Origin: Naegleria gruberi
Taxonomy: Eukaryota
Assembly (NCBI GenBank): GCA_000004985.1
Contig: GG738904.1
Length of the DNA: 64,000 bases
Direction: 5' to 3' (one strand)
The translations under genes and the position numbers were made by a program. The notes beneath the pieces are model-generated. The model was not told where the DNA came from. It did no database searches and saw only the letters and a program-made list of their open reading frames with translations. Shown here in pieces: positions 6,106-35,099 of this stretch (the stretch's first letter is position 1; the number at the start of each line of letters is the position of its first letter).

Positions 6106-6107
6106 AC

Positions 6108-6539
6108 TCAATTTTACTAGGTAACGACAGTATTTGTGACAAATGTAATGTCAAGGAAGATTGGACCCACGTATTCCAAACTTGTCCCAAATGCAATCCT
6201 GAAAAGGATGAACTGTATGCCACATGGGACGCTATCTCCCAGAAATTTAGCCTTAACAAGATTCGTTTCCCTCCTGATATCTCAGAATCCTCTCAACTTA
6301 GGATAGAATTTGATGGTCGTTGCTCCCGTAATGACTGGCTTAACTGGTCTAAGCGCAAAAGAATACCTAAGAATGTGGCCCTAGAAGTCTACAAAGCACT
6401 AGCTATTTATTTGGAAAATTGCTACAAGAACTCAGTGTGGTACAACCGTCCCAATGCAGGCTTCACTATTAACAGGAAATACCTCTCTGCCTACCACAGG
6501 CAGGCTCAGTCTAACCAACCACTTAGCGTCAACCCATAA
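6108..6539 (+). mobile_element. 3' end of a non-LTR (LINE-like) retrotransposon ORF2: C-terminal zinc-binding (zf-RVT type) region; the rest of the element is lost in the gap
   Basis: An open frame runs out of the gap to TAA at 6537-6539. It translates as SILLGNDSICDKCNVKEDWTHVFQTCPKCNPEKDELYATWDAI... The C-x2-C-x3-ED-x2-H-x-F-x2-CP pattern is typical of the Cys/His motif that ends non-LTR RT ORFs. GC content is visibly higher than the flanks. Confidence 0.6.
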
Positions 6540-6610
6540 CACTTAAACGCTGAACCGAAACTTACTGGTTGTAGACCTCGTCTCTCAGGTCTTTACGATA
6601 CAAGAGACGT
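6540..6610 (+). mobile_element. Retroelement 3' UTR with a conserved hairpin core (agacc-N9-ggtct)
   Basis: The sequence cttaaacgctgaaccgaaacttactggttgtagacctcgtctctcaggtct recurs in inverted orientation at 19304-19365. Confidence 0.5.
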
Positions 6611-7305
6611 TAATAAAATCACAATTTACTTTTGCAGGTTCTACCACTTCTTGATTACTAGCAAGCTTCAACTCCATTTCACTTAGTCTTGAAAGAAGTA
6701 CATCCATGTTCGCAATATTCCTTCTTGATTTGACTCTAGCTGTACCATTATTCCTGCAAGACTCAACATCTTCCGACTCAGATGAAGAAGGAGAGGATGA
6801 CGAGGAGTCGGTTCTTCTAGAGTGATTCAGAGGAATACTCTGGCTTGTGCTTCCCGAGTCTGAATGATGATGTCTACCAAATTGTCAACTGACCTATCAG
6901 AAGGTAGTTGAATGCCCATTGATTCAATGAGTTCCTCTAATTGATCAATAGAGCACTCTGATAATTCATTTCTTGATTTAAAATACATCTTTCGGAATTA
7001 ATTTGAGACTTCAAGGTATAAATGGGAAGTAGAATCAACAAGTGTTAAAACCATCTTTTATTACACAAAACAAAAGAAATATCCAATTGTCACAATTGAA
7101 CAATACAATAGATTGAAACTTTTCCAAATTACCATTTGAATCGGGAAGTGATGATGATTTTAGTGAACAATATTAAATTTCACTAAAATATTAATATTAT
7201 CAGATTTCCACAAATATTACTATTATAATGATGATAAATAACAATGATGATGGTTGGTAGTTGTTCCGATGTGATGGAACACGGTAGTATCTGGAATTGA
7301 AAAAA

Positions 7306-7513
7306 ATGACTCAAGTCTCTAAAGGTTTGTGTAATGATCAAAGTTTGCTAATAATTGTAATAGAAATATTTTCTGATGATGTAATTTATGAAATTATTTC
7401 CTATTTATGTGATGATTGGAAATTCGTATTATTAAATTGCGTAATGGTAACAAAACAATGGTTGAACGTCATCCGAGATCGATCCGAGCTTTCAATGATG
7501 GCGAATAATCATT
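7306..7513 (+). CDS. F-box-like protein, N-terminal fragment truncated by the gap
   Basis: ATG at 7306. The peptide ...QSLLIIVIEIFSDDVIYEIISYLCDDWKFVLLNCVMVTKQWLNVI fits the F-box pattern (L..E.L..I..YL......L..V.K.W). The frame runs into N at 7514. Confidence 0.45.
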
Positions 7514-13723: not shown

Positions 13724-14154
13724 CCCTAACCCAAACCCAAACCCAAAGCCAAACCCAAACCCAAACCCAAACCCAAACCCAAGCCCAAACCCAAACCCAA
13801 ACCCAAACCCAAACCCAAACCCAAACCCAAACCCAAACCCAAACCCAAACCCAAACCCAAACCCAAACCCAAACCCAAACCCAAACCCAAACCCAAACCC
13901 AAACCCAAACCCAACCCAAACCCAAACCCAAACCCAAACCCAAACCCAAACCCAAACCCAAACCCAAACCCAAACCCAAACCCAAACCCAAACCCAAACC
14001 CAAACCCAAACCCAAACCCAAACCCAAACCCAAACCCAAACCCAAACCCAAACCCAAACCCAAACCCAAACCCAAACCCAAACCCAAACCCAAACCCAAA
14101 CCCAAACCCAAACCCAAACCCAAACCCAAACCCAAACCCAAACCCAAACCCAAA
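13724..14154 (-). repeat. Second, internal telomere-type array, (CCCAAA)n of about 72 units, in the same orientation as the terminal array
   Basis: It starts immediately after the gap. Variant units (ccctaa, caaagc, caagcc, one cccaa) sit in the left part. It is perfect up to the junction ...cccaaac|taaaaatag. Degenerate telomere-like remnants (aaacccaacgttcaaaccctagccc) follow to about 14200. Confidence 0.9.
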
Positions 14155-15022
14155 CTAAAAATAGAATTCTTCTAAACCCAACGTTCAAACCCTAGCCCAA
14201 AATTATAAACTTATTCAAATATCATTAAATTTTATATCATTCGATTGGAAATTATGAGTAGAACAACGTGGTATATTTAGTTTTTCAATTTATAAAATAT
14301 TAAATTTGTTAATAATGTCAGATTAAAATTTCATAAATGAAACTATAGGAAGAATGATAATTTCAAAATCGTTTAATGAGATTATATAGTCAATATCATC
14401 ATTAACAACATTCATAATCACTTTCATATGAAATTTCAAAGGTTCATGTCTGTAGATATAAAAGTATCAAGTGAAAAGGGAAGATGTGAGGTAAAAGAGG
14501 TCAACAATAACTTTTGAGTTTCTCATCAAAACATATTGAATCCTAATATGAAAATGTTCCATTTGATGATTAAACATCGAATATCAAATTTATTTTGACT
14601 TTCATATTTACAGATTTCTTCCCTCAATCACACATGGTCAACTTGTATGAAAAGGAGGAAATCTTGAAAAAGGACCACCTATTGAAACTTTACCATCATG
14701 ATGTAGATGATATATAATGATGTAGAATTCAATTTCATATCATAAGAATTAGAAATGGTACCATGGGAATGTAAATGTTGATTTTCCAAAGTTGACTGAN
14801 AGGAAAGACAAGTCAGACCAAGTCTATCAAATATATCACTTCAATCAACAAATTATACATGAAAATGCTCCATTCGATGNNNNNNNNNNNNNNNNNNNNN
14901 NNNNNNNNNNNNNNNNNNNNNNNNNNNNNCATGAGTGCAGAACTGAGTTATTCAAAATTTGTGAATGTTCGGTCCAGTCAAATCAAAGATGGGTTCTTAA
15001 CTACCCATAGGTTTGCATTCTT

Positions 15023-16101
15023 CTAGATATTATTGAGCACATTCTCCATCTCTATTCTTTCAATTTCCTCCGTTGTAAAGTTTCCTTTCATTGGAATAAA
15101 CACATGATCGTAAAAGGCCTTGAACCAATAACTCACTGGACAACATCTATTAAAATTCTCTTCAGAGCCTGTATGTACTCCTATTACTGATCGATCAAGA
15201 ATTACATTCTCCTTAAAGTCTCTCCAATTGCTATAATTTTCACAACAAGGAAGAACAGCACCGCCTGAAGAGCCTGGAAATGAGCTGGCGTTATAGTGTT
15301 TACAACATGTTTTTTCGTTAGTATCAACAAATTTTCCAAAGCTAATATTTTTACACTCCAACTCAAACATACTCTTTAAGGCAATAAGATTTGTGTGATA
15401 ATCTAAATGTTGTTCTAAAGTTGTTACATCTTTCTCAGTTGGCATGCCTTGAAAGGAAAGAATAGACATGTTATAATCATGTTCTGATTGAGGGTTGAGC
15501 TTTGAAGGACTTGGAATAAGGTATGATTCTGGAAAATGTTGTTCATCTAATACTATATCGATTGGTACTTCCATTTTCATCAAAACCCAATCTTTGTTTG
15601 GATGTTCCTTTACATTTTCATCCTCTTTCAGATCTGATTTTGCAAGAATGGTGCAATTCATGGATCTGGCACTTAACGGCTCAAACCTATGATTCTTCCC
15701 TAAAATTCCTTTAATCATTCTTAAAGAAAGTTGCACTACTTCATTATTGTATTCATATTCAAAAGGAAGAGTGTTATGCAAGCATGTCACAAAGTAATAT
15801 TCCCAAATAGTGTCGAGTTTGTTTGGAGGAGCAACAAGGAAGCCAGAACCCCGAATTGGAACTCTAACATCAATTTGTTTAGAATTAACACCTTGATAAA
15901 AACAAACTACATCAACAACAGCATTAAAAACATCCAGATTATCCTTTGCAGATTTTAAATCATAACAACTACAAATTCTGGGATAGGTTGTTAATCGGAA
16001 GGGATTGAGGCAACCTGTTAAATCCTCAAAACAATTCCTTGATTTTTCATCAACAATTAACATCTCCTCCGACACAGTGGTAGAGTACTTATTCATCGAT
16101 G
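15023..16101 (-). CDS. Trypsin-fold (S1/PA clan) serine peptidase-like protein, paralog A; its 5' end abuts a 50-N gap
   Basis: Candidate catalytic triad: YYFVTCLHN (His), KDWVLMKM (Asp, compare DIALLKL) and FPGSSGGAV (GxSGG Ser). It is about 95% identical to paralog B. No signal peptide is evident. Confidence 0.65.
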
Positions 16102-16810
16102 NNNNNNNNNNNNNNNNNNNNNNNNNNNNNNNNNNNNNNNNNNNNNNNNNNTTCTGTATACATTATTATAATCGTAATACCTTGCAATACCAATAAAACT
16201 CAATAGAAGAATTAATTCTTCTCATTTTCAAATAGATTATTCAATATAGAACAGATCTAGATAGTTTCCAGATCATAAAAGTCAAGCTACTATATATGGT
16301 CTTTGATTAAATTTAAAAATAGACTGCCGTTGATTACTGGAATCTTGATTCAAAGCTTGTTGATCAACCTATTGATTGAAATCAAACCGATTATTGAATA
16401 TTGAATTGGTGAATAATCACTCTTGATACTGCTACATATTTCAGATTGCATGCAAATCAACCTGATTCAATCTTCAAAGGTTGGTAGTTGCACCACTACG
16501 TGGCGAAACTACCCATCCACGATCAATCAACATTAGATTCACTTCCATTCAACTCAATTTGACCGTTATAATCAATAAATCAATGAAATGTTCCTTTATT
16601 AGCAATACATATTCAATCTAACGAGTAGATTCACGTCCCAAACATTTGACTTCTCAAAGTCCATAATTCAAAAGTTAGTTCTGACCTGACCTTTAAATAT
16701 CTATCAATACAAGAAATGAAACCATCAAATTTACATCATTAATAGATGATAAGAAATATAATCAATGATATGAATCTTCACTAAGTAATCTCTTAAATAA
16801 CCCAAATAAA

Positions 16811-17851
16811 TCAACTCTGAATCCTAACCAAACCCTCTATTCTTTCAATTTCCTCCGTTGTAAAGTTTCCTTTCATTGAAACAAACACATGATCGTAAAA
16901 GGCCTTGAACCAATAACTCACTGGACAACATCTATTAAAATTCTCTTCAGAGCCTATATGTATTCCTATTACTGATCTATCAAGAATAACATTCTCCTTA
17001 AAGTCTCTCCAATTGCTATAATTTTCACAACAAGGCACCACAGCACCGCCTGAAGAGCCTGGAAATGAGCTGGCGTTATAGTTACATGTTTTTTCGTTAG
17101 TATCAACAAATTTTCCAAAGCTAATATTTTTACACTCCAACTCAAACATACTCTTTAAGGCAATAAGATTTGTGTGATGTTCTGATTGAGGGTTGAGCTT
17201 TGAAGGACTTGGAATAAGGTATGATTCTGGAAAATATTGTTCATCCAATACTACATCAATTGGCACTTCCATTTTCATCAAAACCCAATCATTGTTTGGA
17301 TGTTTCTTTACATTTTCATCTTCTTTCAGACCTGATTTTGCAAGAATGGTGCAATTCATAGATCTGGTACTTAATGGCTCAAACCTATGATTCTTCCCTA
17401 AAATTCCTTTCATCATTCTTAAAGAAAGTTGCACTACTTCATTATTGTATTCATATTCAAAAGGAAGAGTGTTATGCAAGCATGTCACAAAGTAATATTC
17501 CCAAATAGTGTCGAGTTTGTTTGGAGGAGCAACAAGGAAGCCAGAACCACGAATTGGAACTCTAACATCAATTTGTTTAGAATTAATACCTTGATAAAAA
17601 CAAACTACATCAACAACAGCATTAAAAACATCCAGATTATCCTTTGCAGATTTTAAATCATAATAACTACAAATTCTGGGATAGGTTGTTAATCGGAAGG
17701 GATTGAGGCAACCTGTTAAATCCTCAAAACAATTCCTTGATTTTTCATCAACAATTAACATCTCCTCCGACACAGTGGTAGAGTACTTATTCATCGATGG
17801 TTTCATAATTTCAATGTCATTGATTGGAATAGATTCTGCTGGTGAGAACAT
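16811..17851 (-). CDS. Trypsin-fold serine peptidase-like protein, paralog B (tandem duplicate of A)
   Basis: ATG at 17851, 346 aa, with the same H/D/S motifs as A. Relative to A it has an in-frame 81-nt deletion (27 aa, DYNMSILSFQGMPTEKDVTTLEQHLDY), a 6-nt indel, and a different last 7-8 codons. Confidence 0.7.
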   Translation of the reverse strand: MFSPAESIPINDIEIMKPSMNKYSTTVSEEMLIVDEKSRNCFEDLTGCLNPFRLTTYPRICSYYDLKSAKDNLDVFNAVVDVVCFYQGINSKQIDVRVPIRGSGFLVAPPNKLDTIWEYYFVTCLHNTLPFEYEYNNEVVQLSLRMMKGILGKNHRFEPLSTRSMNCTILAKSGLKEDENVKKHPNNDWVLMKMEVPIDVVLDEQYFPESYLIPSPSKLNPQSEHHTNLIALKSMFELECKNISFGKFVDTNEKTCNYNASSFPGSSGGAVVPCCENYSNWRDFKENVILDRSVIGIHIGSEENFNRCCPVSYWFKAFYDHVFVSMKGNFTTEEIERIEGLVRIQS

Positions 17852-17998
17852 TCTGCTAATTTTTTTTAAGCTCTCTTGTTGGTATTAAGGTATTAAGAAT
17901 AAGCACTTCTGCATCAACGTTCATCACAACAGCCATTAAATCACAATATTTATCACTGCAATATTTCAGGTGGAACAAAAAAATACCGTTGCGCAGTC

Positions 17999-19303
17999 AT
18001 GAGATTTGTTCGACAAATGTTAGAGGTTATAGTGCCTCAATCCGAAACTGATGATTCGGTCGATGTGTATTCAAAGGATAACTTTAGTGAAGTTTGTTTT
18101 AATGTGTTTAGAGTAGCTGATAATGGTGATTTAATTCCTCCATCCACCAAATTTTCTCTTAGAAAATTATATTTGCTATCAACCATTAAGGATTATTTGA
18201 TGAAGGCTAAATGTGGGATGGCTCGAATAGGTCAGCCAAGTTCAACAGGTTTAGGTGGAAACGGTACTTGCTTTTATTTGCTTCCCAATGTTGTTATCAC
18301 AAACTCTCACGTGGCAAATACAGATGAAATCCCATTGATCTACACAGGCACATATTCCGAAGCAGTTGAAGGCTATTTTCAAAAACTCAATCCTGTTGAA
18401 AGCAAGTTGCTTTTCTCTGGATCATCTATGCAGCATCAAATGCGGAAATATAATCATTCCTTAACAAGAACACATTTCCCTCAAGTTGACGAAACATATT
18501 TAGATCCTATTATTTCTTTACGTGGTGATTTTGGTTATATGGATATTTCCTTGCACAAAATTGCATTTCCAAATAATATGCAAAGTTCTAAAGTATTAAT
18601 GATCCCCTGTCCAGAAATCTTACAAGTTTCAGATCCCATATTTACAATGCATTATCCTGGAGTTGAAGGAACACAATTTTCAAGTCTCCACAGCAACCAA
18701 TTTTCAAATTATTTACATTGGGCACCAAATGACAATGTTGTTTCCGATTTATTTCATGGTTATGGAAAACTATGCATCAGTACTGGTAAAGTTCTGGCTC
18801 CATATGTTGAAGAGAAGCAAGAAAATGGGAACATTGATTGGGTTCCAAATACTTCACATCAATATAACTCTCAAAACTCTAATTTTCTTATAACTAATGA
18901 GAGCGTAACGATAGGTTCATCTGGAGGATGTGTTCAATCTCCAACATGTAGGGTTATTGAAATTAATGGAATTACCTTAGTAGAGTTTCATGCCATCCAT
19001 TTTGGAGGACAATTTGTCAAGTGTAAGAATTGCTTAAAGCACATCAAACAACAAATGAATGAAAATGATGAAGATGAATATCCATCCTTATTCCAAGGTT
19101 TACCTCAAGAATGGAACTTTTGCGAAGCATGTCAAAATGGAAAAGAATCCTCCAAAATGGTGTACAATTACTCTGTTTCAGTTCATCATCCATTGTTGAA
19201 ACAAGTTTACAAGAAATTAATTGCACCAGATTTGTTAACAGTATTGAATGTGAATTTGTCTGATGAGAGATTAGAAAGGCTGAAACAATATTTAGACATG
19301 TAA
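17999..19303 (+). CDS. Trypsin-fold serine peptidase-like protein, divergent paralog C, with a C-terminal CxxC...CxxC zinc-ribbon-like tail
   Basis: Motifs: GNGTCFYLLPNVVITNSHVANTD (His), GDFGYMDISLHKI (Asp) and TIGSSGGCV (Ser). The C-terminus reads KCKNCLKH...NFCEACQNG. It is transcribed divergently from paralog B across a 147-bp spacer. Confidence 0.65.
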   Translation: MRFVRQMLEVIVPQSETDDSVDVYSKDNFSEVCFNVFRVADNGDLIPPSTKFSLRKLYLLSTIKDYLMKAKCGMARIGQPSSTGLGGNGTCFYLLPNVVITNSHVANTDEIPLIYTGTYSEAVEGYFQKLNPVESKLLFSGSSMQHQMRKYNHSLTRTHFPQVDETYLDPIISLRGDFGYMDISLHKIAFPNNMQSSKVLMIPCPEILQVSDPIFTMHYPGVEGTQFSSLHSNQFSNYLHWAPNDNVVSDLFHGYGKLCISTGKVLAPYVEEKQENGNIDWVPNTSHQYNSQNSNFLITNESVTIGSSGGCVQSPTCRVIEINGITLVEFHAIHFGGQFVKCKNCLKHIKQQMNENDEDEYPSLFQGLPQEWNFCEACQNGKESSKMVYNYSVSVHHPLLKQVYKKLIAPDLLTVLNVNLSDERLERLKQYLDM

Positions 19304-20197: not shown

Positions 20198-22164
20198 TTA
20201 CATGAAATTTATTTCGTCTGCATCAAAATATAAATTTGAAATAGTTCTTCTTTCTGGACTGGCTGCTCTGCTCATTCTTCTATCGTAGAGCTTGATAGTG
20301 TCTGCAATTCTGTTGGTATTTGTTGGAACCACAAAGCTTTCAGTTGTCATATTGATGAGGTTGACTACCCTCTTCTTGGCAGCTTCTCTTGACATTTCAA
20401 TTGCTTTTTTCAATCCCAAAAAGCTTTGATTTCCTCTCATGGATGTGAGCTTGTTCCACAATGAGAGAGGAACAATTCCTCCCAAATCAATAAATGCCAT
20501 TGCTGTATATCTTGTGTGAATATCACTCAATTTCTCAATTAAAATACCTCCAATATATCTTCCTCGAACACAACCTTTAGTGATTGGCACTTTGCTGTTT
20601 TCAATACCTCTCCTCAATATCAAAAAATCACTCTCCGTTGAGTCAATGCCAATTTCTCTCCTGACAGAGGAGCCGAGAATGAATTCTCTGTTACTCAATG
20701 GCCAAGGCATTTTCACAACACTTCTCGAATAGGATACTCCCAATCCATCCTCTTCCTCGTCATCTTCAATAAATTCCAAAAAATCAGTGGAAATTATTTG
20801 ATTCTCCACCATTGAATAATATCGTGAATCGATGAGAGCTGTCAATACCTCTTCAGGTGTTGCATTCAAAATACCAGTTTCCTTAAATAATTGAATTGTT
20901 CTTTTCTTTTTGTCAAGTTTCAGCTTTCCCAAATCTGACTTGTAAGAAGCAAAACAAGTAGAGTCCTTATCCTTTGAAGAGGTGATGCATTTCCACAAAT
21001 TTTCATCATTAGATTGAATGATTACTTTCAACATTTCAAAATCTTCCTCCTTTACAATCTTTCGTGTTGTATCTGCAAACAGCAGTGCACGAGCAAATCT
21101 CTCGACAATAGCTGAGCCTGATGAAGAACTCTTCACATCACTAGATGTTGCTGAGGCAGAATCTGAATTCTGACTTGATGTATCACTTGTGGTGGCAAGT
21201 GGAGGTGAACTTGGTTGATTTTCCTCATCAACAATGAAATTCCTAGCTGACGAATCTTGCATTCTTGCATTCTTCTTTTCTCCAATCATTGACAAGTAAA
21301 TATCCAAATAATGATAAAAACCTTCCAAATCCTTAGCTGATTCCAAACATTCAGTAACTACACTAATAATATGATCTGTAAACTGTTTACTCTGTGTAAA
21401 TCTCAAAAAGTTGTCAGATTTCAATTGAATTGAAACATCTACTTTAGCATTATCGAATAGATTTGGATCTACAAATTCCTCCGATGCATAATTGTAAAAC
21501 TTGGCAATGACAATCTCTCTAATATTATTATTCAAATTAATCTGTGAGTCACTTTCTTCTCTAAAGAAGGCATCAATAATCATTTGTGATTGTTGAAACC
21601 TTGTCAGTGGATCTTTCATCTTGTTAAATTCGGCAATTCTTATTAGAAACTCCAAAGATGACAAATTCAATTCTCTCTTTAAAAACTCTTTGAACAAATC
21701 CAACAGAATAAATTCACCATTTCTATATATTAATTCTTCTCTCAATTTGGAATCTTTTACCAGTTGACCAGAGCACTATTTCCGTTGGCCATCATTAAAT
21801 TACTTGTACTACTACCATTAGATGTTGTTGTTGTATTGTTGGTACTACAACTCTTCAAATCATATCCTCCCAATAACATTATCTTCTCCAAGTCAATTGA
21901 AAATGTTTTCAATCTATCCAGTACGATATTGACCAACATTTCATATGGTCCTCCACACATAACTGGTTTATAAGTAACAACAATTGAATTGATGGAATTA
22001 TTGGGTGAAGATGACATTAAAGGTGCGGAAGAGGAAACTGATTTGTTCTCTTGATGATCTTCATGTGATGATGATGATGATGATGATGGTTGAATAATTC
22101 GCATGGATGATGATTGTGTTGTTTTCAAACTCGTTTTCGAGTGGTTGGATGACGAGGCCGACAT
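20198..22164 (-). CDS. RGS domain + START (lipid-binding) domain protein
   Basis: Two exons, 22164..21804 and 21738..20198, joined by a 65-nt GTAATT..AG intron that is in frame. RGS signature: LFKEFLKRELNLSSLEFLIRIAEFNK...INLNNNIREIV...LFDNAKVDV...FLRFTQS. START signature: VVKMPWPLSNREFILGSSVRRE...VRGRYIGGILIEKL...FIDLGGIVPLSLWN. The N-terminus is Ser-rich. Confidence 0.7.
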
Positions 22165-22876: not shown

Positions 22877-25119
22877 ATGTTTCCATCATCTGAAGAGGTT
22901 TCGAATGAGGAAAAAAACAATCCAGCATTGAGTACTTCTCAACAACCTGCAAGTATAACTCCAAAAGTTTCAGATAATTTACAAAAAGCACCTTCATTGA
23001 CTTTTGTTGAAGAGGTAATTGAGGAAGAAACTCAAACGAATCAAACTAATCAACCTGTGCATCATCTCCACACACTTCCTTCGGACGATACTTTACTGTT
23101 ACACTCTCACAACCTTTCTAGATTGTTGGGATTTAACAAATCTAAAAAACTAAGACTAATTGGCAACCAACCCGCTATTCGATTCGACAGTTACTTTGAT
23201 TTGAATAAGAAAGCAGAGGAAAAAATGTTAAAACCAAAGAAGGCATCCAAAATGAGAATATTTCTCGCCACTGCTTGCTTTAGTGGTTTGCAATTTGGTT
23301 GGGCACTTCGTAAGTTTCCACAAGTTTCGTCTCATTTCCAATACTAACAAAAACATGCAAAATTCATAGAAATTGCTCTCTTAACACCATACATTCTCGA
23401 ACTGGGTCTCTCCAAAAATCTAATCACTCTCATTTGGCTCTGTGGCCCAGTCTCTGGTCTCATCATTCAACCTTTAGTTGGTGTTCTAAGTGATCGTTGT
23501 AAAAGTCCACTAGGAAAACGACGTCCCTTTCTAATAGTTGGTACAATCATGATTGTCATGTCCCTTCTCCTCATTCCATTCAGTCTCGATCTGGGTCATG
23601 CCATGGGAGATCCAACTAATGATCATCCAGCGGCAATTGCTTTGGCAATTATTGGATTTTGGATTCTTGATGTGAGTAATAATACATTACAAGGGCCGAC
23701 GAGAGCATTGGTTGCTGATATGGCATCTCATAAGAATCAGGCATTTGGAAATGCTGCATTGACGTTTTGGAGTGGATTGGGAAATATTTTGGGATATTTG
23801 GCTGGTTTTATAAGGGTAAGTAGTTATTCGAAATTGGATTATTCGAAAGTTGGAATGATTTTGTAAAGTGGTCTGAATATATTCCATTTTTCAAAACTGA
23901 AGTGTGTTCAGAAGGTTGCCAGAATTTGAAGATTTGCTTCCTACAGAGTATCATGTTTCTTCTCTTTACTTTCGTTGTGACCTTGTTAGCAGCTCGTGAG
24001 GAGCCAACTCATAAGAAACATACCCAAAGAAGGGATGAAGAGAATCGACTAATTGGTGAAGAAACCAAAACTGAAAATCCAGAAAATCAATCAGAAAGTG
24101 GAATGGAAACTAATCTTTTCAAATCAAAAAGTGAACCAATGCTCCACACAACCTCTTCCCAAATTGATGAAGAAGAAGAAAGTGAAGCCCAACCTCAGTT
24201 GACTTCTCCAAACTTTAACAATTCAAATCAGAATGCTGCACTTCTGGAACCTTTCATTGATGAAGAAGAATCAGAAATTACTCAATCAGATCGTCCTCAA
24301 CAAGTGGAAGTTTCTGGAGAGCTGGTACTCGAACACAATATTGAAAAGGAAAAGGAAGAACACACAATCTTTCCTCCAGATACTCGTGCTGTCTCTCTCC
24401 ACATTGTCCGAGTCAATCAATTATGGAACTATGTCAGGAGTTGCTTCTCCCTACCTCAAGCCATGTGGAGAGTTTGCATTGTAAACTTTTTCTCATATCT
24501 GGGATGGTTTACATTCCTTGTGTATATTACTACTTGGGTTGGTGAGAATGTTTTCCATGGAAAGAGTGATGAGAAGGAACCTTCGTATAATCTCTATGTG
24601 AAAGGAGTTCAATTCGGCTCGTTTGGATTGGCTGGATTTGCTGGATCATCCATCATCTTTTCCTTTATGATTCCTTCCCTGTGCCACAAAATTGGCTTTA
24701 AGGCAACATTTTTCTTTAGTCAATTGGTCCTTGCCGGTTGTCTTGGAGCTACCTTATTTGTCAAGAACAAAATCCTGGCCTTACTATTAATCTCAACCTT
24801 TGGATTTCCATGGGCAGTGAGCAATACCATTCCATTTGCTCTAGTTGCAACCATTGCTAATAAGGATCAAAAGGGAACTTTTATGGGATTGCTGAATATT
24901 TTCATTGTTGTTCCACAGTTGGTGATGAGCTCATTTGGACCTGTGATTTCGATACTTTCGAATGGAAATGTTGCTTGGACTTTGATGTGTGGAGCTATTA
25001 GTGTGTTGATTAGTGCAGTGATGGTGTGGTTTCTGATAATTCCTCCATCAATTCTGATAACAAAGAAACGAAAGAAGAAGAAACACAACAGGCTCTATCT
25101 TTCTCACTCTATTCATTAG
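22877..25119 (+). CDS. Sucrose/H+ symporter-like transporter (GPH/SUT-SLC45 family MFS)
   Basis: Three exons: 22877..23309, 23370..23815, 23869..25119. The 60-nt and 53-nt introns keep frame, and the first contains TACTAAC. The spliced sequence reads QFGWALQIALLTPYILELGL...IWLCGPVSGLIIQPLVGVLSDRCKSPLGKRRPFL, the canonical SUT signature. Multiple TM segments follow. Confidence 0.8.
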
Positions 25120-26365
25120 GAAATAATTATTCTTTCATGTGATACTAACACGAATCATGGCCAACCGAAAAATAGCACTTGAATGCATGTAGATAAACTA
25201 TTCTAAACCTTTCATAACCTTTCGCACACTTTGAATGTTTTCAATAAAACTTCACAATTCTTTGCAGTGATGATTGAACACCTTCTTAAACCAACCTCAT
25301 CCTATTTCGTGCATGTTTCTATTCGAAAGATTTAAAACGAGGCTAAATATGTGAACTTTACAACACAATTTTCCAAACATTGAAAGTGCCTTCCTTGTTA
25401 TCCTCAAACAAAGTCCTGAGGAGAATAGGTGTGCTATTGAGAAGTATCTAATAATCCCCAAATAGATTGGTCCATTCGATGGGCTCTCCTTCTAATATTG
25501 TAATCGAATGCTAAATTATTCGAATGTGCACACATGTGTGAGGCTTTTTCAATCCAATAAACGTGTCAAAAAAACAAGTTCATTCAGACCTTGCTAATCT
25601 CGCTCTCATAGTGGCCCAAAAGAATCTAGGAATTACTGCAGAGGACACTTTTACTACTATTCGCTTCTTGCCGAAACTCCACACAATTGTTTTTCTTGCA
25701 TTTTCAGAATTGAGTGTTGCAAGCTTGTTTCGACTTTTCTAGAGAACACACCAAGAACTTCACAAAAGCTCATCTTGGTTCTCCTAAATTCTTCAGTTCG
25801 AACAATTTCTGAACCGGTTACAATTCTACAATTTCCAATACCAACTTTTGATTGAATTTTCAAAGGAAATTGGATGGACAATCGTGCAAAAAAAGTATCC
25901 ACCACACAATACAGTAACTTTATACGAAACTCAACACACTCACGTTGAAGGTTTCGTTATCGTTCAATTTAATATTGAATATATTTTTTGATTAGCACTT
26001 ACCATTGCCGAATTGGACAAAACTATACTAGTATCAGCAACAACCAAATTTGCACTGTCATCAGCTTATTCACAGTCAAAAAAAACATCTATAGACCCTT
26101 CTCTCTAAATTATTCGAAAGTAGAGTGGATTATTCTTCACATCATCAACAGGCGGCACAACAACAATTGTTGTTGATCAACATCCATTGACAATATTTAA
26201 ACACAAAATCGGAGAATACGAAAAAATCTCTGTGAGCAGTAAAACTAATAACCGAACAAAAAATTTGCCGCCAAAAAAGAAAATTGCTGAATTCAAACCT
26301 GAACTTGCGTAAACATTTAAAAACTTGTTAAATTCACACACACAAATTATCAATTGGATTTCAAC

Positions 26366-29300
26366 ATGCAAGTTTCAGAACAACAAGTATCTGTAGTACT
26401 AACTCATCAACCACAATCATCATCAATATCTGAAGCGGATAATAATAATAATAATAATACCATTAACAATATAGATAATAATAATAATAGCAATAATAAT
26501 AATAATAATATAGAGGAAGATAATGATAATAATAATAATATTTACATGCTTTCATTCAATAATAGTGGATTAACACCTGCATTACCTGATCCGAGTCCTT
26601 CACCTCCACTTAAATCAACTGTTGCAGTAGTTGGTACATCATCACAACAACAAAACATGTCGAAATTATATTCCTCTCCTCCGAATAACATTAACAATCA
26701 ATTAGATTATTCACCAGTGAGGATTAGAACCATCAATTCGGCGACATTACCAACCAATAATAATATTAACAATAATAATGAAGACCGATCACTGATGATG
26801 ACAACAACAACATCTTCATCAACTGCACCTCCTCCACCTAGTTCTTATCAATATCCAATTCCAACAAGACCTACTACTACTAAATCTTCATCCGTGAATG
26901 AGAGTAATAATATGATGGAGGACAATTTCCCCAACACCATAGAAAGTAATGTGCGAACACAAGAACATTCCCAACAACAAACACACTACAAATCCTATCA
27001 TCACAATAATGAAAGAGAAGGAGAACGAGCTTCTTACTATCATCACTCCTATCCATCACAAAATTCCATAATGATGACAAATAATCATAATATCGAAAAT
27101 TGGAAAGGCTTGAAGGAAAACAGCAACAATCTATCATCCGCAGAAATTCAAAAAGAACAAGCGAACTTGGTTTACGGCACTCAATACCGCCAAAAGAATA
27201 GAAGTACACAACCACCTAGCAGCGCTTCTTACTTAGGATCAGTTGTTGAACGAGAAGAAAGAGGAGACGAAGAAGAAGAAGATTATCGTGTCTATCATCA
27301 TCAGCAACAACCACAGCAACAACAATATTTGAGAGAGAACTATTATCCTTCTCATCAGGGTAGTAGTACTACGTTGCCAAGCACTACTTCAATCTTGTTG
27401 CCAAGCCACGAAGCAAGGAATATCCAAAATTATAACAACCCTTCGCTACAAATAATTAATCAAAAGAATACCTCCACAAGTTCAACTTCACCTTCTTTAA
27501 ATTTTGCTACAGGTTCGTCTTCACAACAACCATTGCACGGAAGAAGAAATAGCAATTATCATCTGTACGATAATAATAACTATCACCAACAACACCAATA
27601 CGTGGAGAGAAATAATAACAATTTTCCAACAACTTCTCTCCATCAACGAACAACACCAACAACAATAGCAGAATATCAAGTTGGAGCTCCTAGTTATTCT
27701 AAACAAAGTTCAATGCAACAACAACCCTTTGTCATTCAGCCAAGTATGCAGCCCTCATCTGGAATACCGTCCTTTCACCAAGTTCACTCATCCTCCTCTG
27801 CCACCAATTCCTTCCATGTACCTTCCAATTATCAACAACATCATCATCATCAACCTCCACCACCACAACACTATCAACCACTTCCTCCGTCATCATCATC
27901 CTCATCAAATTATTTGAATCCTCCACACCAACAACAACAACAATCATCCTACTCTTCACCAAACAGTAACCAAACTAACTCATCCGAACCAAAATTACGT
28001 GTCTATAATTCAACATTAAAAGTTCCAGAAGGAATTTTTTCATACGATAACACAACACTAACTTGTGAACCTCATGGATTTAAGCCAAATGATAGAAGAG
28101 GAGCTCCACAAACAACTCACAGTGTCTACGTGAGTGATGTATTAGTAGTTACTTGTGATTTGGTTAACATGTCGAATCAACCAGGTGTTTTTCAAAATTG
28201 TACTGCGAGATTGGTTCATTTGATGGGAAAGAATGCTAAAAAGAAGAGAAAGGAAGGAGTCAGTGATCAAGATGATGGTTTAGACTCGGAGGATGATGAT
28301 TTGGATGATGGAAAGAAGAAGAAAAAGAAGAATAAGAAGAAGGATCAAGAAGATTCACTTGATGGTGATTTTGTTACTGATTTTTCACAGGCAGGAATGT
28401 TAGAGTCTTTTGAATTATTATCGGAACAACCTTGTCAAGAAAATGTTCAGAAAGGAAAGATTGTTTCCTCCCTCAAGGTTCCTCGTGTTAGGGGAAGAGA
28501 TTGTAAAACAAAGACTGGACAAATTCAAGTTATTAGATTTAAAGGAACAGAGAGAGAACATATTATTGCTGTGAGTGACTTGTTCTGGATAAGATCTAGA
28601 ACAAGAACAGAGATGGAAGTGAGAAAGTTCAAGAAACAACAGCAACAAACTCCACAACAATCATTGCCATCTCATCAACCACCTCAACAACAACCAATTT
28701 CTGTTCAATCACATGAAACTTCCAATCTTTCTTTGCATCATCATGCACAACAACTTTCTCATCCACCAACAATTCCATCTTCAAGTTTAAATCCTCCTCG
28801 TGAAAATTATCATAATCCACAATGGCCAAATATGCCAAATATTGTACAACCAAATTCACCAAGTACAAATGAGCATGCTGGTCTTCCTCCTAAAAAGAGA
28901 AGGAATAATAGTCCAGGAGGTGGTAATACACCAAACACTTATAGAGTTCCTTCAAATCCAGCTGCTTCAATTGTTCACTCATCAACAGGATATTTCCCCT
29001 CAAACAATATTCAACATCAAGAGAATGGTAAAGTACCAAATCTACACGATTCTCCTTCTCTTAGTCATCATCATCATCACGTGCCTTATCAACCATCGAG
29101 GAATGAACCAACTTATCATGAATTACTACAACGAGTTCACACATTAGAAGAAAAGTTGAATAGACTTGAAAGTAAATTGACTAGAGCTGGACATTTGTCA
29201 CCTGAGTTCCCAATGCCACCTGATAGTCAAACATTTTCTCCATTCCTCCCTAGTTCTGCAATTCAGCCACGTCCTGTTGAACCACCTAAAACTTTTGCAC

Positions 29301-29539
29301 CTTTCCCAATTGATGTTTTCATTAAAGACGATAAGAGAGGAGAAAACCCAACATTGCCTTCAGTGGTTTCGTCAGATTCCCAACCAGCAATTTTTAATCC
29401 AAAATCACCACTTCCAAGTTTCCCTTTTGATCCATCTGATTCATTCTTGAAGAATAGTTTCTCATCACCACCAGCTTTTACAAATCCAACATCGAGCAGT
29501 TCATCCGAGAGTGGAGGTGGCATGAAGAGAGAACGTTAA
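26366..29539 (+). CDS. Large low-complexity (N/Q/S/P/H-rich) protein of unknown function
   Basis: Single ORF of about 1057 aa from ATG 26366. It has poly-N, poly-Q and poly-H runs, a central non-repetitive segment (KLRVYNSTLKVPEGIFSYDNTTLTCEPHGF...QIQVIRFKGTEREHIIAVSDLFWI), an acidic/KKKKKKNKKK NLS-like insert and a short heptad segment (YHELLQRVHTLEEKLNRLESKL). Confidence 0.6.
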   Translation: MQVSEQQVSVVLTHQPQSSSISEADNNNNNNTINNIDNNNNSNNNNNNIEEDNDNNNNIYMLSFNNSGLTPALPDPSPSPPLKSTVAVVGTSSQQQNMSKLYSSPPNNINNQLDYSPVRIRTINSATLPTNNNINNNNEDRSLMMTTTTSSSTAPPPPSSYQYPIPTRPTTTKSSSVNESNNMMEDNFPNTIESNVRTQEHSQQQTHYKSYHHNNEREGERASYYHHSYPSQNSIMMTNNHNIENWKGLKENSNNLSSAEIQKEQANLVYGTQYRQKNRSTQPPSSASYLGSVVEREERGDEEEEDYRVYHHQQQPQQQQYLRENYYPSHQGSSTTLPSTTSILLPSHEARNIQNYNNPSLQIINQKNTSTSSTSPSLNFATGSSSQQPLHGRRNSNYHLYDNNNYHQQHQYVERNNNNFPTTSLHQRTTPTTIAEYQVGAPSYSKQSSMQQQPFVIQPSMQPSSGIPSFHQVHSSSSATNSFHVPSNYQQHHHHQPPPPQHYQPLPPSSSSSSNYLNPPHQQQQQSSYSSPNSNQTNSSEPKLRVYNSTLKVPEGIFSYDNTTLTCEPHGFKPNDRRGAPQTTHSVYVSDVLVVTCDLVNMSNQPGVFQNCTARLVHLMGKNAKKKRKEGVSDQDDGLDSEDDDLDDGKKKKKKNKKKDQEDSLDGDFVTDFSQAGMLESFELLSEQPCQENVQKGKIVSSLKVPRVRGRDCKTKTGQIQVIRFKGTEREHIIAVSDLFWIRSRTRTEMEVRKFKKQQQQTPQQSLPSHQPPQQQPISVQSHETSNLSLHHHAQQLSHPPTIPSSSLNPPRENYHNPQWPNMPNIVQPNSPSTNEHAGLPPKKRRNNSPGGGNTPNTYRVPSNPAASIVHSSTGYFPSNNIQHQENGKVPNLHDSPSLSHHHHHVPYQPSRNEPTYHELLQRVHTLEEKLNRLESKLTRAGHLSPEFPMPPDSQTFSPFLPSSAIQPRPVEPPKTFAPFPIDVFIKDDKRGENPTLPSVVSSDSQPAIFNPKSPLPSFPFDPSDSFLKNSFSSPPAFTNPTSSSSSESGGGMKRER

Positions 29540-30851
29540 ATGAAGTGAAATAAAAAATTAATTGTAAATTCAAATATGAAAATTGAAGTTTAGTTTGTAA
29601 TATGTTTGAGAATCCAACAAGTTCAAAGATATTAATGGTCCTTCCACCTTGTGTGTCATGTACTCTAGTGTAAAAAAATCAAAAAGGCTGTGTGAAAAGT
29701 GAGCTTAACTTTACAACATGTGATCGTTCAATGCGTGCGTACGATCTCCGATCTATTGAGAAGAAACCAGTTGTTGAAAATTGCAAACTTGAAGATTTAA
29801 CGTTTCGAAAAAAAATTCATGAGTAGTAACAAGTAGGCCGCTAATTTGCTTGCTAGAAAAGACTCTGATCACACACTATGTAAGTCATCATTCTTAAATA
29901 TCTTGGCAAGATATTAATTTCTACATTTCACCAATTTGCTTGTAAAAATTTACAAATTGCAATTTTAATGATCCAATGATAATAATAATGATCATCATCC
30001 GATACCTAATTAACTTGATCATATTAATACTACCATGATCATCAATGATGATATTGTACACTTTGTATGCAAATTGTCGTGATGAAAAATCTTGTCAAAC
30101 ACTTTTGGATTAATTTCCAAATATGGACTCTTTAATATTGGTCCTTTTTCTTGCATTACTCTCTGTGTTGATCGTCACCAAAACACTCAATTGGTTCTTT
30201 CTCTATCAACATTCCATTCAATATTGCATTTCCTCTCCTTTCTTAACCCAATTGACCAAAATCTTGAAAAAATCGATGAAATTTCTTATTGGGCTCTTGT
30301 TGTTCTTTGTTTGTTATTCGTGGTATTCTTCTTTCAAAATACTTGCCATTGCTCCGAATGAAAACTTTGAAAAATCCTTGCAATATCGGAATGCTTCCTC
30401 TTTCCAATTTCATATCAAATCTTCCATCCTTGCTGCTTGTCTAAATTCCCACCACTCTAACAATGCAAATACTTGCAAATCTTCCTCCACTCATAACCAT
30501 CGTGCTGATGTTAATGATGCTGAACCAATTTTTGAACTTTCCTGTCGTTGCACAACTTTAAATCCGATGAATAATGATCCTTCTCTCACCACCAAAAACA
30601 ACCTCGACCAAATATTGCAACAATACCAAAATTCATTGACTTTGGACTCCCCGAATCAATCGACCACCCCCAACTACTACGGCTCTTGTTCTGTTACTGA
30701 CAATCGTGATGATGATGCTTCTGGTGCTTCTTCCTCTGCTTCTTCCTCTGCAACTGCTACCTTGATTAATACCAACCAAAATAGTACTAAAAACTCTCTC
30801 AAAGAAGTAGAAGAAAAAACAACAACTCCCTCCAAACAACTCTTAGAAATA

Positions 30852-32723
30852 ATGAATAAGAACGACTTGTATGCACTTGCTCCAAATCACTTCCTCTACA
30901 ATCCAATGTTGAATAAGGATACCGCATTCACAGTGGAGGATCGTGAAAAATTGGGTCTTCGTGGATTGTTGCCACCACACGTTGAGACCATTACTCATCA
31001 ATTGGTGAGATGCTTGAGACAATTCCGTAACTTTAAAAATCCATTGGACAAGTATGTTTACTTGATGAGTTTGCAAGGTAGAAATCAAACCTTGTTCTTT
31101 AAATTGTTGATTGATAACATGGTTGAAATGTTGCCAATTGGTAAGTTGATGATAATAATTTTGCATTCCAAAGTTTTTAACACATTCTCTCTCATCTGTG
31201 TGAAATTTACTTGTTATTTTGCTTAATACAAATAATAATGCTTCGGAACCACCACAACAAAACACAACATTCATTTACCACTCTTTTTAACATTATAAAC
31301 AGTCTACACACCAACTGTTGGTGATGCTTGTCTTCAATTCGACCAAATTTGGAGAGTTGCTCAAGGCATGTACATCTCATTGGAAGATAAGGGATCAATT
31401 TCTGCAATTTTGAAGAATTGGGAACCAAAGCAACCAGATATTATTGTCGTTTCCGATGGTTCACGTATTTTGGGTCTTGGTGATTTGGGTGCTAATGGTA
31501 TGGGTATTCCAATTGGTAAATTGAATCTCTATGTTGCTGCTGCTGGTTTCCATCCAGATAAGACTTTGCCAATTTGCATTGATGTTGGTACTAACAATCC
31601 AGGATTGTTGGAAGATGATTTATATTTGGGATTGAAGAGAAAGCGTGTTCGTGGACAAGAATTCTTTGATTTCATGAAGGAATTTATGATTGCTGTCAAG
31701 ACTACATGGCCAAATTGTTTAGTCCAATTCGAAGATTTCTCAAATGATGTCTGTTTCGATTTATTGGATCAATATCGTAATGAACAATTGTGTTTCAATG
31801 ATGATATCCAAGGTACTGGTGCTGTCATTGTTGCTGGTTTCATCAATGCTGCCAAGATTACTGGTAAGAGAACTTATCAACACAAATTATTATTTATGGG
31901 AGCTGGTTCTGCTGCCACTGGTGTCGCTGATCAATGTGTTGGTGTCATGAAATTGCAAGCTGAAGAAGATGGATTGAGCAAGGAAGAAATTGATGCCATG
32001 TCTGAACATTGGGTTTATTTGGTCGATTCTAAGGGATTAGTTACACAAACTCGTTCTGATTACGAAGAAATGCCACATCACAAGAAGAAGTATGCCAAGA
32101 AGGGTGATGAAACTTTGGGTAACTTCCAATCCAAATCTCTTTTGGAAATTGTTCAAAAGACTCAACCAACTGCTCTCATTGGTCTCTGTGGTCAATCTGG
32201 TGTTTTCACTCAAGATATCATTGAAGAAATGGCCAAGATTAACCAAAAGCCAATCGTTTTTGCCTTGTCCAACCCAACTAAGAATTCTGAATGTACTGCC
32301 AAGGAAGCTATTGAATATTCAAGTGGAAGAGCTATCTTTGCTTCTGGTTCTCCATTCGAAGATGTTACTTACAATGGAAAGACTTATCAATTGAGTCAAG
32401 GTAACAATTTGTACATTTTCCCAGCTTTGGGTCTTGGTGCTGTCGTTACCAGATCAAAGCACGTTTCTGATGTTATGATTTTGAGAGCTGCTCAAACTTT
32501 GGCCGATCTCACAAGCCAAGATAGATTGGACAATGGATTGTTGTATCCAAGTTTGACAAATATCAGAGAAATTGCTCAAAAGATTGCTGTCCAAGTTGGT
32601 AAACAAAGTGTTAAGGAAGGTCTTTCTCAATTGACTGAAGAACAATTACCAAAATCTGAAGAAGAATGGGTTAAAATTGTTAAGGATTATGTATATACTC
32701 CAGATTATGAGTCCAAATTGTAA
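30852..32723 (+). CDS. Malic enzyme (NAD(P)-dependent malate dehydrogenase, decarboxylating)
   Basis: Exons 30852..31140 and 31303..32723, with a 162-nt GT-AG intron. The splice recreates LPI|VYTPTVGDACLQF. Other motifs: GLLPP, GIPIGKLNLYVAAAGF, FNDDIQGTGAV, FMGAGSAATG. The same frame stays open upstream to ATG 30123, a possible 243-aa extension. Confidence 0.9.
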
Positions 32724-34618: not shown

Positions 34619-34675
34619 ATTGGTAATGAGTAAATTGAATTGTGTCTGTGCAATTCTGATTGTATTCTTGTAAAG

Positions 34676-35070: not shown

Positions 35071-35099
35071 CTTTTTATATCTCCTCCAATCAACTATAT

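What the first reader, a model, noticed from the sequence alone, without database searches (positions are those of the whole stretch)
15023..19303. Subtelomeric cluster of three signal-peptide-less trypsin-fold proteases undergoing indel diversification
Paralogs A and B are a tandem duplication of about 95% identity. The homology breakpoint falls inside the last 8 codons, giving different C-termini (...IERIEMENVLNNI versus ...IERIEGLVRIQS). They also differ by an in-frame 81-nt indel placed between the putative Asp and Ser regions, and by a 6-nt indel. Paralog C is highly diverged, is transcribed divergently from B, and adds a CxxC...CxxC tail. All three keep plausible H/D/S triad contexts, yet none has an N-terminal signal peptide, which is unusual for S1-type enzymes and suggests intracellular roles. 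The location 1-5 kb from a telomere array fits the pattern of rapidly evolving subtelomeric families.
Basis: partly seen in the sequence, partly recalled or inferred. Interest (0 to 1): 0.5.

Follow-up and report, generated by a model that had tools for sequence, protein, structure and literature searches.

The report
Naegleria telomere-side trypsin-fold protease genes
Next to a chromosome end of the amoeba Naegleria gruberi lie three intact genes for signal-peptide-less trypsin-fold serine proteases from two lineage-restricted families; this is an ordinary, unannotated branch of a very well-known enzyme fold, and the near-identical gene pair may be an assembly artefact.

Summary
The sequence features are real. 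ORF A (15023-16096, -) and ORF B (16811-17851, -) are 96-97% identical in DNA. They differ by an 81-nt indel, a 6-nt indel and the last 8 codons. ORF C (17999-19303, +) diverges from B across 147 bp. A (CCCAAA)n array, the candidate N. gruberi telomere repeat, ends 0.9 kb from A.

Several interpretations fail or weaken.
- C is not a demonstrable paralog of A/B. It belongs to a separate family with orthologs in N. lovaniensis and Willaertia at positions that are not contig ends.
- A metagenomic relative shows that B's 81-nt deletion and altered C-terminus are derived. The deletion removes a segment conserved in all other A-family members, which looks like decay rather than diversification.
- dN/dS is about 0.34.
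- A sits on a 1.17-kb contig between two 50-N gaps, so the tandem duplication may be a haplotype misplaced by scaffolding.
- Intracellular PA-clan proteases are common.

Interest is low to moderate.

The parts
13724..14155 (.). (CCCAAA)n telomere-type array, about 72 copies, in the orientation expected for a left chromosome end. It is internal to the scaffold because of upstream gaps and a second array at 1-302.
   Evidence: TRF result; sequence; TTTGGG is the candidate N. gruberi telomere repeat (PMC3622300).
14930..16101 (.). The 1,172-nt contig that carries gene A. It is bounded by 50-N gaps at 14880-14929 and 16102-16151.
   Evidence: List of N runs.
15023..16096 (-). Gene A, 357 aa as readable; the start may be hidden in the gap. 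It is a PA-clan serine protease. Candidate triad: H107 (15776-15778), D169 (15590-15592), S277 (15266-15268).
15398..15478 (-). 81-nt segment (A residues 207-233, DYNMSILSFQGMPTEKDVTTLEQHLDY). It is present in A and in the metagenomic relative and deleted in B. It is conserved in all other family members and contains the predicted strand 210-213.
15299..15304 (-). 6-nt insertion (codons C265-K266) specific to A. It is absent from B and from the metagenomic relative.
15050..16101 (.). Copy 1 of the repeated segment, homologous to 16835-17799. Its upstream end is lost in the gap.
16152..16834 (.). Unique sequence downstream of B with no ORF of 60 aa or more. It is not homologous to A's downstream flank, to B's upstream flank, or to anything else in the window.
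16811..17851 (-). Gene B, 346 aa. It is 96-97% identical to A in DNA, lacks the 81-nt segment and has a derived C-terminus. Candidate triad retained: H126, D188, S267.
17852..17998 (.). 147-bp divergent intergenic region between B (-) and C (+). Its B-proximal 119 bp (17852-17970) are also the upstream flank of the single copy in the metagenomic relative.
17999..19303 (+). Gene C (NAEGRDRAFT_73298), 434 aa, a member of a second family of PA-clan serine proteases restricted to Heterolobosea. Invariant residues include H104, D182 and S308.
19022..19132 (+). Cys4 insertion in C (C342-x2-C345 ... C375-x2-C378). It lies between the GIHxGG strand and the C-terminal helical segment and is a possible zinc-binding module (inferred).
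20198..21745 (-). Neighbouring RGS + START domain gene, convergent with C. An RGS gene occupies the same position and orientation next to the Willaertia ortholog of C.

Best explanation
The locus, in Naegleria gruberi, encodes members of two distinct, lineage-restricted families of cytosolic trypsin-fold (clan PA, Trypsin_2-like) serine endopeptidases.

Shown:
- Both families keep the canonical motif order: GSGF...T(C/N)xH, then D(W/I)(A/V/S)L, then GSSGG, then GIHxG.
- A model of A adopts the double beta-barrel fold of HtrA and glutamyl-endopeptidase type enzymes.
- No signal peptide, TM segment or PDZ domain is detectable.
- C is the conserved resident gene. It has orthologs in N. lovaniensis and Willaertia and a similarly placed RGS neighbour in Willaertia.
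- A and B belong to a family found only in N. gruberi-type amoebae: about 4 further loci in the reference genome, plus copies on contigs from one metagenome.
- B is the derived copy. It lost 27 conserved residues from the start of the second barrel, and its last 8 codons and downstream flank were replaced.

Inferred:
- The enzymes act as ordinary charge-relay serine proteases on intracellular substrates.
- An N-terminal extension of about 80 residues and extra C-terminal helices (plus a Cys4, probably zinc-binding, insertion in C) probably mediate regulation or partner binding.
- A is the functional copy and B is probably crippled.

Open: whether A and B are true tandem paralogs or two haplotypes of one gene placed side by side by the scaffolder. 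I put this at roughly even odds.
For: Organism and annotation: the best hits are N. gruberi predicted proteins NAEGRDRAFT_52757 and NAEGRDRAFT_73298.

Fold and family:
- Trypsin_2 (PF13365) is the only Pfam family hit that recurs across either family. A-family member P0009, which matches A at E 3.6e-29, scores 24.5 bits at E 5e-5 over profile positions 1-136 of 144. C-family member P0008 scores E 2e-4.
- The C-family profile and the combined profile hit only PA-clan proteases at the top of the PDB list: SplE 6.7e-4, HtrA1 7e-4, MarP 5e-3, 3C-like proteases. The family His and Ser motifs align on the catalytic TNxH and GNSG motifs of those structures.
- In 5.8e9 proteins, the next non-family hits to the combined profile all carry PF13365.
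- AlphaFold model of A: pTM 0.68, pLDDT 80-96 in the core strands.
- Foldseek gives HtrA1 at E 3.8e-7, probability 1.0, TM 0.60-0.65.

Catalytic residues: D169 and S277 are invariant and H107 is nearly invariant in the A family. H104, D182 and S308 are invariant in the C family.

Localisation: no hydrophobic N-terminus.

Polarity of the A/B differences: the metagenomic relative L001 has B's upstream flank, the 81-nt segment, no 6-nt insertion, and A's C-terminus and downstream flank. The deleted segment is conserved across paralogs that are 24-34% identical.

Constraint: 15 nonsynonymous and 11 synonymous changes between A and B give dN/dS of about 0.34.

C orthologs and context.
Against: - A and B themselves get no Pfam hit, and C gets only 13 bits. 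No member reaches the Trypsin_2 gathering score of 27.6 bits.
- The structure model of C failed (pLDDT 35).
- The model of A is only moderately confident (mean pLDDT 61). Its alignment included four genuine Trypsin_2 proteins, which may bias the fold.
- The MAFFT alignment of the Asp region across families is unreliable.
- No expression, localisation or activity data were found.
- The absence of a signal peptide rests on a hydrophobicity scan only.
Confidence: 0.75

Rival explanations
1. A and B are a genuine tandem duplication at the chromosome end. The two copies are now diverging by indels and substitutions in a subtelomeric birth-and-death process.
For: - The scaffold places the two copies head-to-tail in the same orientation, 715 bp apart, with different 3' flanks.
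- Divergence of 2.6-4% with two indels exceeds what I would expect between alleles. That expectation comes from my own memory of sub-1% heterozygosity in NEG-M and was not checked.
- Repeats that are 96-97% identical would also cause contig breaks.
Against: - The A contig is 1,172 nt and has a 50-N placeholder gap on each side. Homology to B runs right up to its upstream edge.
- The related strain has a single-copy-like contig with B's upstream flank and A's downstream flank.
- B's truncated 3' end, the supposed duplication breakpoint, is derived relative to that strain. Yet A, not the other strain, is the outlier in substitutions: A has 22 lineage-specific changes (9 synonymous), B has 4 and L001 has 9. 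A recent local duplication predicts that A and B are sisters.
Confidence: 0.45
2. A and B are two haplotypes (alleles) of one gene in a heterozygous diploid. The divergent allele assembled as a separate small contig, and the scaffolder dropped it into the nearest gap, creating a false tandem duplication.
For: - The small contig sits between two minimal gaps.
- The first roughly 130 nt of the coding sequence are 100% identical up to the contig edge.
- The single-copy structure in L001 combines the flanks of B and A.
- The substitution tree fits two old allele lineages, with L001 close to the B lineage.
- Naegleria is described as mainly a heterozygous diploid (PMC9928731).
- Other family members also occur as near-identical pairs, one member of each pair on a small or different scaffold: P0004/P0017 and P0007/P0020.
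- The deposited gene model fuses B and A into one chimera.
Against: - This requires structural heterozygosity downstream of the gene, because the 3' flanks are unrelated.
- No reads or coverage data are available here.
- L001 comes from a short-read metagenome assembly and could itself be a collapsed chimera.
Confidence: 0.45
3. The genes are of viral or other foreign origin, for example an endogenised giant-virus or RNA-virus protease, inserted near the telomere.
For: - The A family is restricted to N. gruberi-type amoebae.
- The PA-clan fold is common in viruses, and BFVD contains trypsin-like matches including giant-virus proteins.
Against: - No relatives of either family in IMG/VR.
- Viral structural matches (best E 8e-6, generic) are weaker than cellular HtrA1.
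- GC content of the region (32-34%) matches the rest of the window.
- C has orthologs in three heterolobosean genera, with a conserved neighbour in Willaertia.
Confidence: 0.03
4. The proteins are catalytically dead pseudoproteases or scaffolds, or the ORFs are not expressed at all.
For: - No expression or proteomic data were found.
- B lacks a conserved core segment.
Against: - His, Asp and Ser are kept in all full-length members of both families across 24-50% sequence identity.
- dN/dS is about 0.34.
- Intact ORFs of 346-434 aa in a 33% GC genome are unlikely to be chance.
Confidence: 0.1

Closest known systems
Pfam Trypsin_2 (PF13365) / MEROPS clan PA, S1B-S1C-like bacterial-type serine peptidases (glutamyl endopeptidase, Spl, MarP)
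   Same: - Same motif order: GxGF..TNxHV, then DxAllK, then GxSGG, then vGiHxgg.
- It is the only Pfam family hit.
   Different: - All scores are below the Pfam gathering threshold.
- There is no signal peptide.
- There is an N-terminal extension of about 80 aa.
- There are long insertions between the Asp and Ser regions.
- There is an extra C-terminal helix, and a Cys4 insertion in C.
HtrA/Deg proteases (MEROPS S1C)
   Same: - Best Foldseek hits: HtrA1 catalytic domain at E 3.8e-7, TM about 0.6.
- Some members are intracellular.
   Different: - No PDZ domain is detected by Pfam.
- There is no sequence-level membership.
- The oligomeric state is unknown.
Eukaryotic intracellular PA-clan proteases without secretion signals (FAM111A, plant Nal1)
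   Different: There is no detectable sequence relationship. The flanking domains differ, and nothing indicates a shared function.
Classical S1A trypsin/chymotrypsin (PF00089)
   Same: Same double beta-barrel fold and the same His-Asp-Ser order.
   Different: - No PF00089 hit.
- No signal peptide.
- No zymogen activation N-terminus.
- The S1A disulfide pattern was not checked.

Membership tests
Pfam Trypsin_2 (PF13365) | Whole-protein score at or above the curated gathering score (27.6 bits) | tested here: not met
   A and B get no hit. C scores 13.1 bits (E 0.16). The best family members are P0009 at 24.5 bits (E 5e-5) and P0008 at 22.5 bits. These hits are sub-threshold but consistent, and no competing family appears.
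Clan PA (chymotrypsin fold) serine peptidases | Two six-stranded beta-barrels of the chymotrypsin fold | tested here: met
Clan PA (chymotrypsin fold) serine peptidases | Catalytic His, Asp and Ser in that order within canonical motifs | tested here: met
   A has H107, D169 and S277. C has H104, D182 and S308. These are invariant or nearly invariant in each family. The His and Ser motifs align with the catalytic residues of SplE and HtrA1. The Asp assignment rests on the canonical motif plus invariance only.
Clan PA (chymotrypsin fold) serine peptidases | Triad residues juxtaposed in three dimensions, with an oxyanion hole formed | not testable with these tools
   Model coordinates are not exposed. 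Only fold-level matches are available.
Clan PA (chymotrypsin fold) serine peptidases | Serine-dependent peptidase activity | not testable with these tools
   This requires an experiment.
HtrA / S1C | One or more C-terminal PDZ domains after the protease domain | tested here: not met
   No PDZ hit in Pfam for A, B, C or their relatives.
S1A trypsin (PF00089) | PF00089 match, a secretory signal and a zymogen N-terminus | tested here: not met
   No PF00089 hit. No hydrophobic N-terminus.
Peptidase_S64 (Ssy5) and other named PA-clan Pfam families | A match to the family profile | tested here: not met
   A full Pfam-A scan at E up to 10 returned only Trypsin_2, apart from one chance AAA_lid hit.
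Subtelomeric multigene family | Family members preferentially located at chromosome ends | tested here: inconclusive
   This locus lies 0.9-5 kb from a telomere-type array. The C orthologs in N. lovaniensis and Willaertia lie about 45 kb and about 235 kb from contig ends. The other N. gruberi members are on scaffolds of 8 kb to 707 kb at unknown positions. The N. gruberi assembly could not be queried.
A/B and C as one paralogous family | Statistically significant sequence or profile similarity between the two groups | tested here: not met
   BLASTP gives E 0.67. hhalign gives probability about 2%. HMM scores fall within the range of 200 shuffles. What is shared: collinear clan motifs, an IP[SC]P linker motif and adjacency.

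The most novel reading that the evidence does not exclude
A/B-type and C-type proteins together form a previously unclassified, Heterolobosea-restricted branch of clan PA. Its marks would be an N-terminal extension of about 80 aa, an IP(S/C)P inter-barrel linker, an extra C-terminal helical module, and a Cys4 zinc module in the C type. In this reading the A type arose from the neighbouring C type by ancient local duplication. It then expanded only in N. gruberi, where copies at a chromosome end are being born and lost. Chance adjacency of the two small families is unlikely, roughly 0.004 by my rough estimate from about 5 and about 6 loci among about 15,700 genes. This would merit a new MEROPS family or subfamily of intracellular regulatory proteases.
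Probability: 0.35. Interest if true: 0.35.

Novelty: new member of a known kind. Interest (0 to 1): 0.25.

Why it matters
The practical value is mainly curatorial.
1. Two groups of N. gruberi 'predicted proteins' with no Pfam domain can now be annotated as PA-clan, Trypsin_2-like serine peptidases.
2. The deposited gene model NAEGRDRAFT_52757 is a chimera of two ORFs and should be split, or collapsed if the duplication is an artefact.
3. The locus is a concrete test case for false tandem duplications and internal telomere arrays in the 2010 NEG-M scaffolds.

Biologically it adds another lineage-specific, signal-less trypsin-fold protease group. It does not change how this fold or subtelomeres are understood.

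Tried and rejected
- Pfam on A, B and C directly gave no hit for A and B and only E 0.16 for C. It became informative only through the paralogs.
- phmmer of A, C and P0009 against PDB sequences found nothing useful. The A-family profile alone against the PDB gave one irrelevant hit.
- The structure prediction of C from a 6-sequence alignment failed (pLDDT 35).
- The AFDB50 fold library was unavailable.
- The intron explanation for the 81-nt indel was rejected. There are no GT..AG boundaries, and the segment is coding and conserved in paralogs.
- I first thought a GATTAT microhomology explained the deletion. On re-inspection both GATTAT copies lie inside the deleted segment, and only a 2-nt AT junction ambiguity exists.
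- Searches for further copies or relatives found none in JGI metagenome contigs, in IMG/VR or elsewhere in the window.
- Exact-protein look-ups for A, B, C, P0004, P0007 and P0009 failed, and no N. gruberi gene was found on record in that index. The chromosomal positions of the paralogs could not be obtained.
- The Fritz-Laylin 2010 genome paper is not held, so NEG-M heterozygosity figures could not be checked.
- No paper mentions the locus tags.
- Sequence-level synteny of the RGS neighbour with Willaertia is weak (E 0.036). Only domain, position and orientation agree.


Full report
**What is there.** The window comes from Naegleria gruberi. The best database matches of the ORFs are N. gruberi predicted proteins on a 297-kb scaffold: NAEGRDRAFT_52757 and NAEGRDRAFT_73298. 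Three uninterrupted ORFs occupy the region:
- A: 15023-16096 (-), 357 aa.
- B: 16811-17851 (-), 346 aa.
- C: 17999-19303 (+), 434 aa.

A (CCCAAA)72 array lies at 13724-14155. TTTGGG is the published candidate telomere repeat of N. gruberi (PMC3622300). The window has a second array in the same orientation at 1-302, and large N gaps lie between the two. The array next to the genes is therefore internal to the scaffold as assembled.

**Check of the observation.**
- A and B are 95.7% and 97.4% identical in two DNA blocks: 15050-15399 vs 16835-17178, and 15479-16101 vs 17177-17799.
- Homology ends 8 codons before A's stop codon, which gives the two different C-termini.
- The 81-nt indel is 15398-15478 and the 6-nt indel is 15299-15304.
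- The 81-nt segment has no GT..AG boundaries and only a 2-nt junction ambiguity, so it is a real coding indel.
- B and C are divergent across 147 bp.
- C has CKNC at residue 342 and CEAC at residue 375. Family alignments show that this is an insertion before the C-terminal helical segment, not a tail.
- A hydrophobicity scan finds no signal-peptide-like or TM-like stretch in any member.

The description is therefore confirmed.

**Are they trypsin-fold proteases?**

Direct Pfam scans are nearly silent. A and B get no hit, and C gets Trypsin_2 at E 0.16. An exhaustive phmmer search of A against 1.84 billion representative proteins found only five proteins:
- the deposited chimeric model;
- a metagenomic near-identical copy, P0002;
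- three further N. gruberi proteins: P0009 (E 3.6e-29), P0010 (E 1e-7) and P0011 (E 1e-4).

C has a separate family. It includes N. gruberi paralogs at 73% and 31-34% identity, an N. lovaniensis ortholog at 51% (named 'Serine protease' in UniRef) and a Willaertia magna ortholog at 45%.

Scanning all members gives Trypsin_2 as the only recurring Pfam family. P0009 scores 24.5 bits (E 5e-5) over profile positions 1-136 of 144, and P0008 scores 22.5 bits. Both are below the 27.6-bit gathering score.

Profiles of the C family and of both families combined hit only PA-clan proteases at the top of the PDB list: SplE at 6.7e-4, HtrA1 at 7e-4, MarP and the 3C-like proteases. In those alignments the family GSGF..T(N/C)xH and GSSGG..GIHxGG motifs fall on the catalytic His and Ser motifs. 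Against 5.8 billion proteins, the first non-family hits to the combined profile all carry PF13365.

The candidate triads are H107, D169 and S277 in A and H104, D182 and S308 in C. They are invariant or nearly invariant within each family.

There are caveats. The alignment used for the model of A contained four genuine Trypsin_2 proteins. Triad geometry could not be measured. The Asp assignment rests on the canonical DWALLK-type motif and its invariance.

**Is C a paralog of A and B?** Not demonstrably.
- BLASTP gives E 0.67.
- hhalign gives a probability of about 2%.
- HMM scores lie within the range of shuffled controls.

The two groups do share collinear clan motifs, an IP(S/C)P motif after the Asp strand, and a similar C-terminal N..(C/S)V..-helix segment. 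Two small families of about 5-6 loci each are also unlikely to be adjacent by chance; this last point is inference. I treat them as two families of the same clan. An ancient local duplication remains possible but is unproven.

**Direction of the A/B differences.**

The metagenomic contig L001 (ENA ERZ929261, 1,486 nt) carries a single copy with these features:
- its upstream flank matches B's upstream flank (17970-17852);
- it has the 81-nt segment;
- it lacks the 6-nt insertion;
- its C-terminus and 3' flank match those of A (15022-14932).

B's deletion and B's C-terminus are therefore derived, and the 6-nt insertion is derived in A.

The 27 residues lost from B align to a block conserved in every other family member, with the pattern Y(S/N)-hydrophobic-x-hydrophobic-xS(F/I)...D(I/V/M)..L. 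The block includes predicted strand 210-213, at the start of the second barrel. B is probably structurally compromised (inference).

Lineage-specific substitutions are as follows.

| Lineage | Synonymous | Nonsynonymous |
|---|---|---|
| A | 9 | 13 |
| B | 2 | 2 |
| L001 | 3 | 6 |

A versus B gives dN/dS of about 0.34. That indicates purifying selection, not diversifying selection.

**Is the tandem duplication real?**

A lies on a 1,172-nt contig with a 50-N gap on each side, whereas other gaps in the window have specific sizes (5121, 6210 and 1170 N). Homology to B runs to the contig's upstream edge, and the first roughly 130 coding nt are identical.

The supposed duplication breakpoint, B's 3' end, is derived relative to L001. 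A recent local duplication would make A and B sisters. Instead A is the outlier, including at synonymous sites.

Other points bear on this question:
- Naegleria is described as mainly a heterozygous diploid (PMC9928731).
- Other family members occur as near-identical pairs on small or separate scaffolds.
- The deposited gene model fuses B's 5' part to A's 3' part.

All of this fits a divergent haplotype dropped into the nearest gap. The different 3' flanks and the 2.6-4% divergence fit a real duplication equally well. I cannot decide without reads, and I give each reading about 45%.

**Subtelomeric family?**

This locus is close to a telomere-type array. The C orthologs in N. lovaniensis and Willaertia, however, lie about 45 kb and about 235 kb from contig ends, and neither has an A-like neighbour.

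In Willaertia the gene after the C ortholog is a convergent RGS gene of 517 aa. In N. gruberi the corresponding neighbour is a convergent RGS+START gene of 515 aa. C therefore looks like an old resident gene. Direct sequence similarity between the two neighbours is weak.

The positions of the other N. gruberi members could not be retrieved.

**Other origins.**
- No relatives were found in IMG/VR or in JGI metagenomes.
- Viral structural matches are generic and weaker than the cellular ones.
- The composition of the region matches the rest of the window.

**Comparison with known families.**

The proteins work like Trypsin_2, S1B and S1C-type serine peptidases, but they fail the formal Pfam membership threshold. 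They lack PDZ domains, so they are not HtrA. They lack a PF00089 match and a signal peptide, so they are not S1A.

Lack of a signal peptide is common in this part of the clan. HtrA2, the Deg proteases, FAM111A and Nal1 are among the structural neighbours.

**Verdict.** This is a correct observation of an ordinary kind of gene. It is a divergent, unannotated branch of a very well-known fold, with an annotation error and a possible assembly artefact attached. Novelty: new member of a known kind. Interest: 0.25.

Noticed in passing
window 15023-17851 (-): The deposited gene model NAEGRDRAFT_52757 (P0001, 503 aa) is a chimera. It joins B residues 20-236 (...LIALKS) directly to A from VNSKQID onward, treating the rest of B, the spacer and the gap as an intron. 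The two separate ORFs, or a single ORF if the duplication is false, are the better reading.
   Followed up: yes
window 1-302 and 13724-14155: Two (CCCAAA)n telomere-type arrays lie in the same orientation, 13.4 kb apart. Between them are small contigs (303-984 and 6106-7513) and gaps of 5.1 and 6.2 kb. This is either a mis-scaffolded join of different chromosome ends or an interstitial telomere array.
   Followed up: partly
window 20198-21745 (-); L003 11358-13094 (-): An RGS+START gene lies convergent to C in N. gruberi. In Willaertia magna an RGS-domain gene of nearly the same length occupies the same position and orientation. This suggests conserved micro-synteny, although direct sequence similarity is weak (E 0.036).
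   Followed up: partly
N. gruberi proteins P0004/P0017 and P0007/P0020 (other scaffolds): Other C-family members also exist as near-identical full-length and truncated pairs. One member of each pair is on a small or separate scaffold (8.5 kb, 20 kb and 236 kb). These could be retained haplotigs or recent segmental duplications in the NEG-M assembly.
   Followed up: no
C family: The search returned homologs from N. gruberi, N. lovaniensis and Willaertia but none from N. fowleri, although I recall N. lovaniensis being the closest known relative of N. fowleri (not checked here). The gene may have been lost in the pathogen, or it may simply be unannotated. This was not tested at the DNA level.
   Followed up: no
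L004 (ENA ERZ929261 contig, 6,964 nt): The metagenome sample that yielded L001 (the A/B-like copy P0002) also yielded L004, which carries P0012, the ortholog of A-family member P0009. ENA copies of P0004 and P0007 also exist; their sample was not checked. A close N. gruberi relative is therefore present in that sample. P0012 sits next to a Peptidase_S9 gene and an RGS gene.
   Followed up: partly
protein cluster of P0004: A 48-aa Streptosporangium hypothetical protein (P0018) is listed in the same 90% cluster as P0004 but shows no visible similarity to it. This is probably a clustering glitch.
   Followed up: partly
window 34683-34950 and 59035-59197: These are imperfect tandem repeats with 12/44/108-nt units (GGTACC-rich) and 12/24/48-nt units (ACACCAACAAAA). 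They were not examined.
   Followed up: no
window 23902-37871: The neighbouring genes are ordinary housekeeping or regulatory genes: MFS transporter, malic enzyme, cytochrome P450 and a Myb protein. The gene-dense, ordinary part of the chromosome therefore begins within about 10 kb of the telomere-type array.
   Followed up: partly
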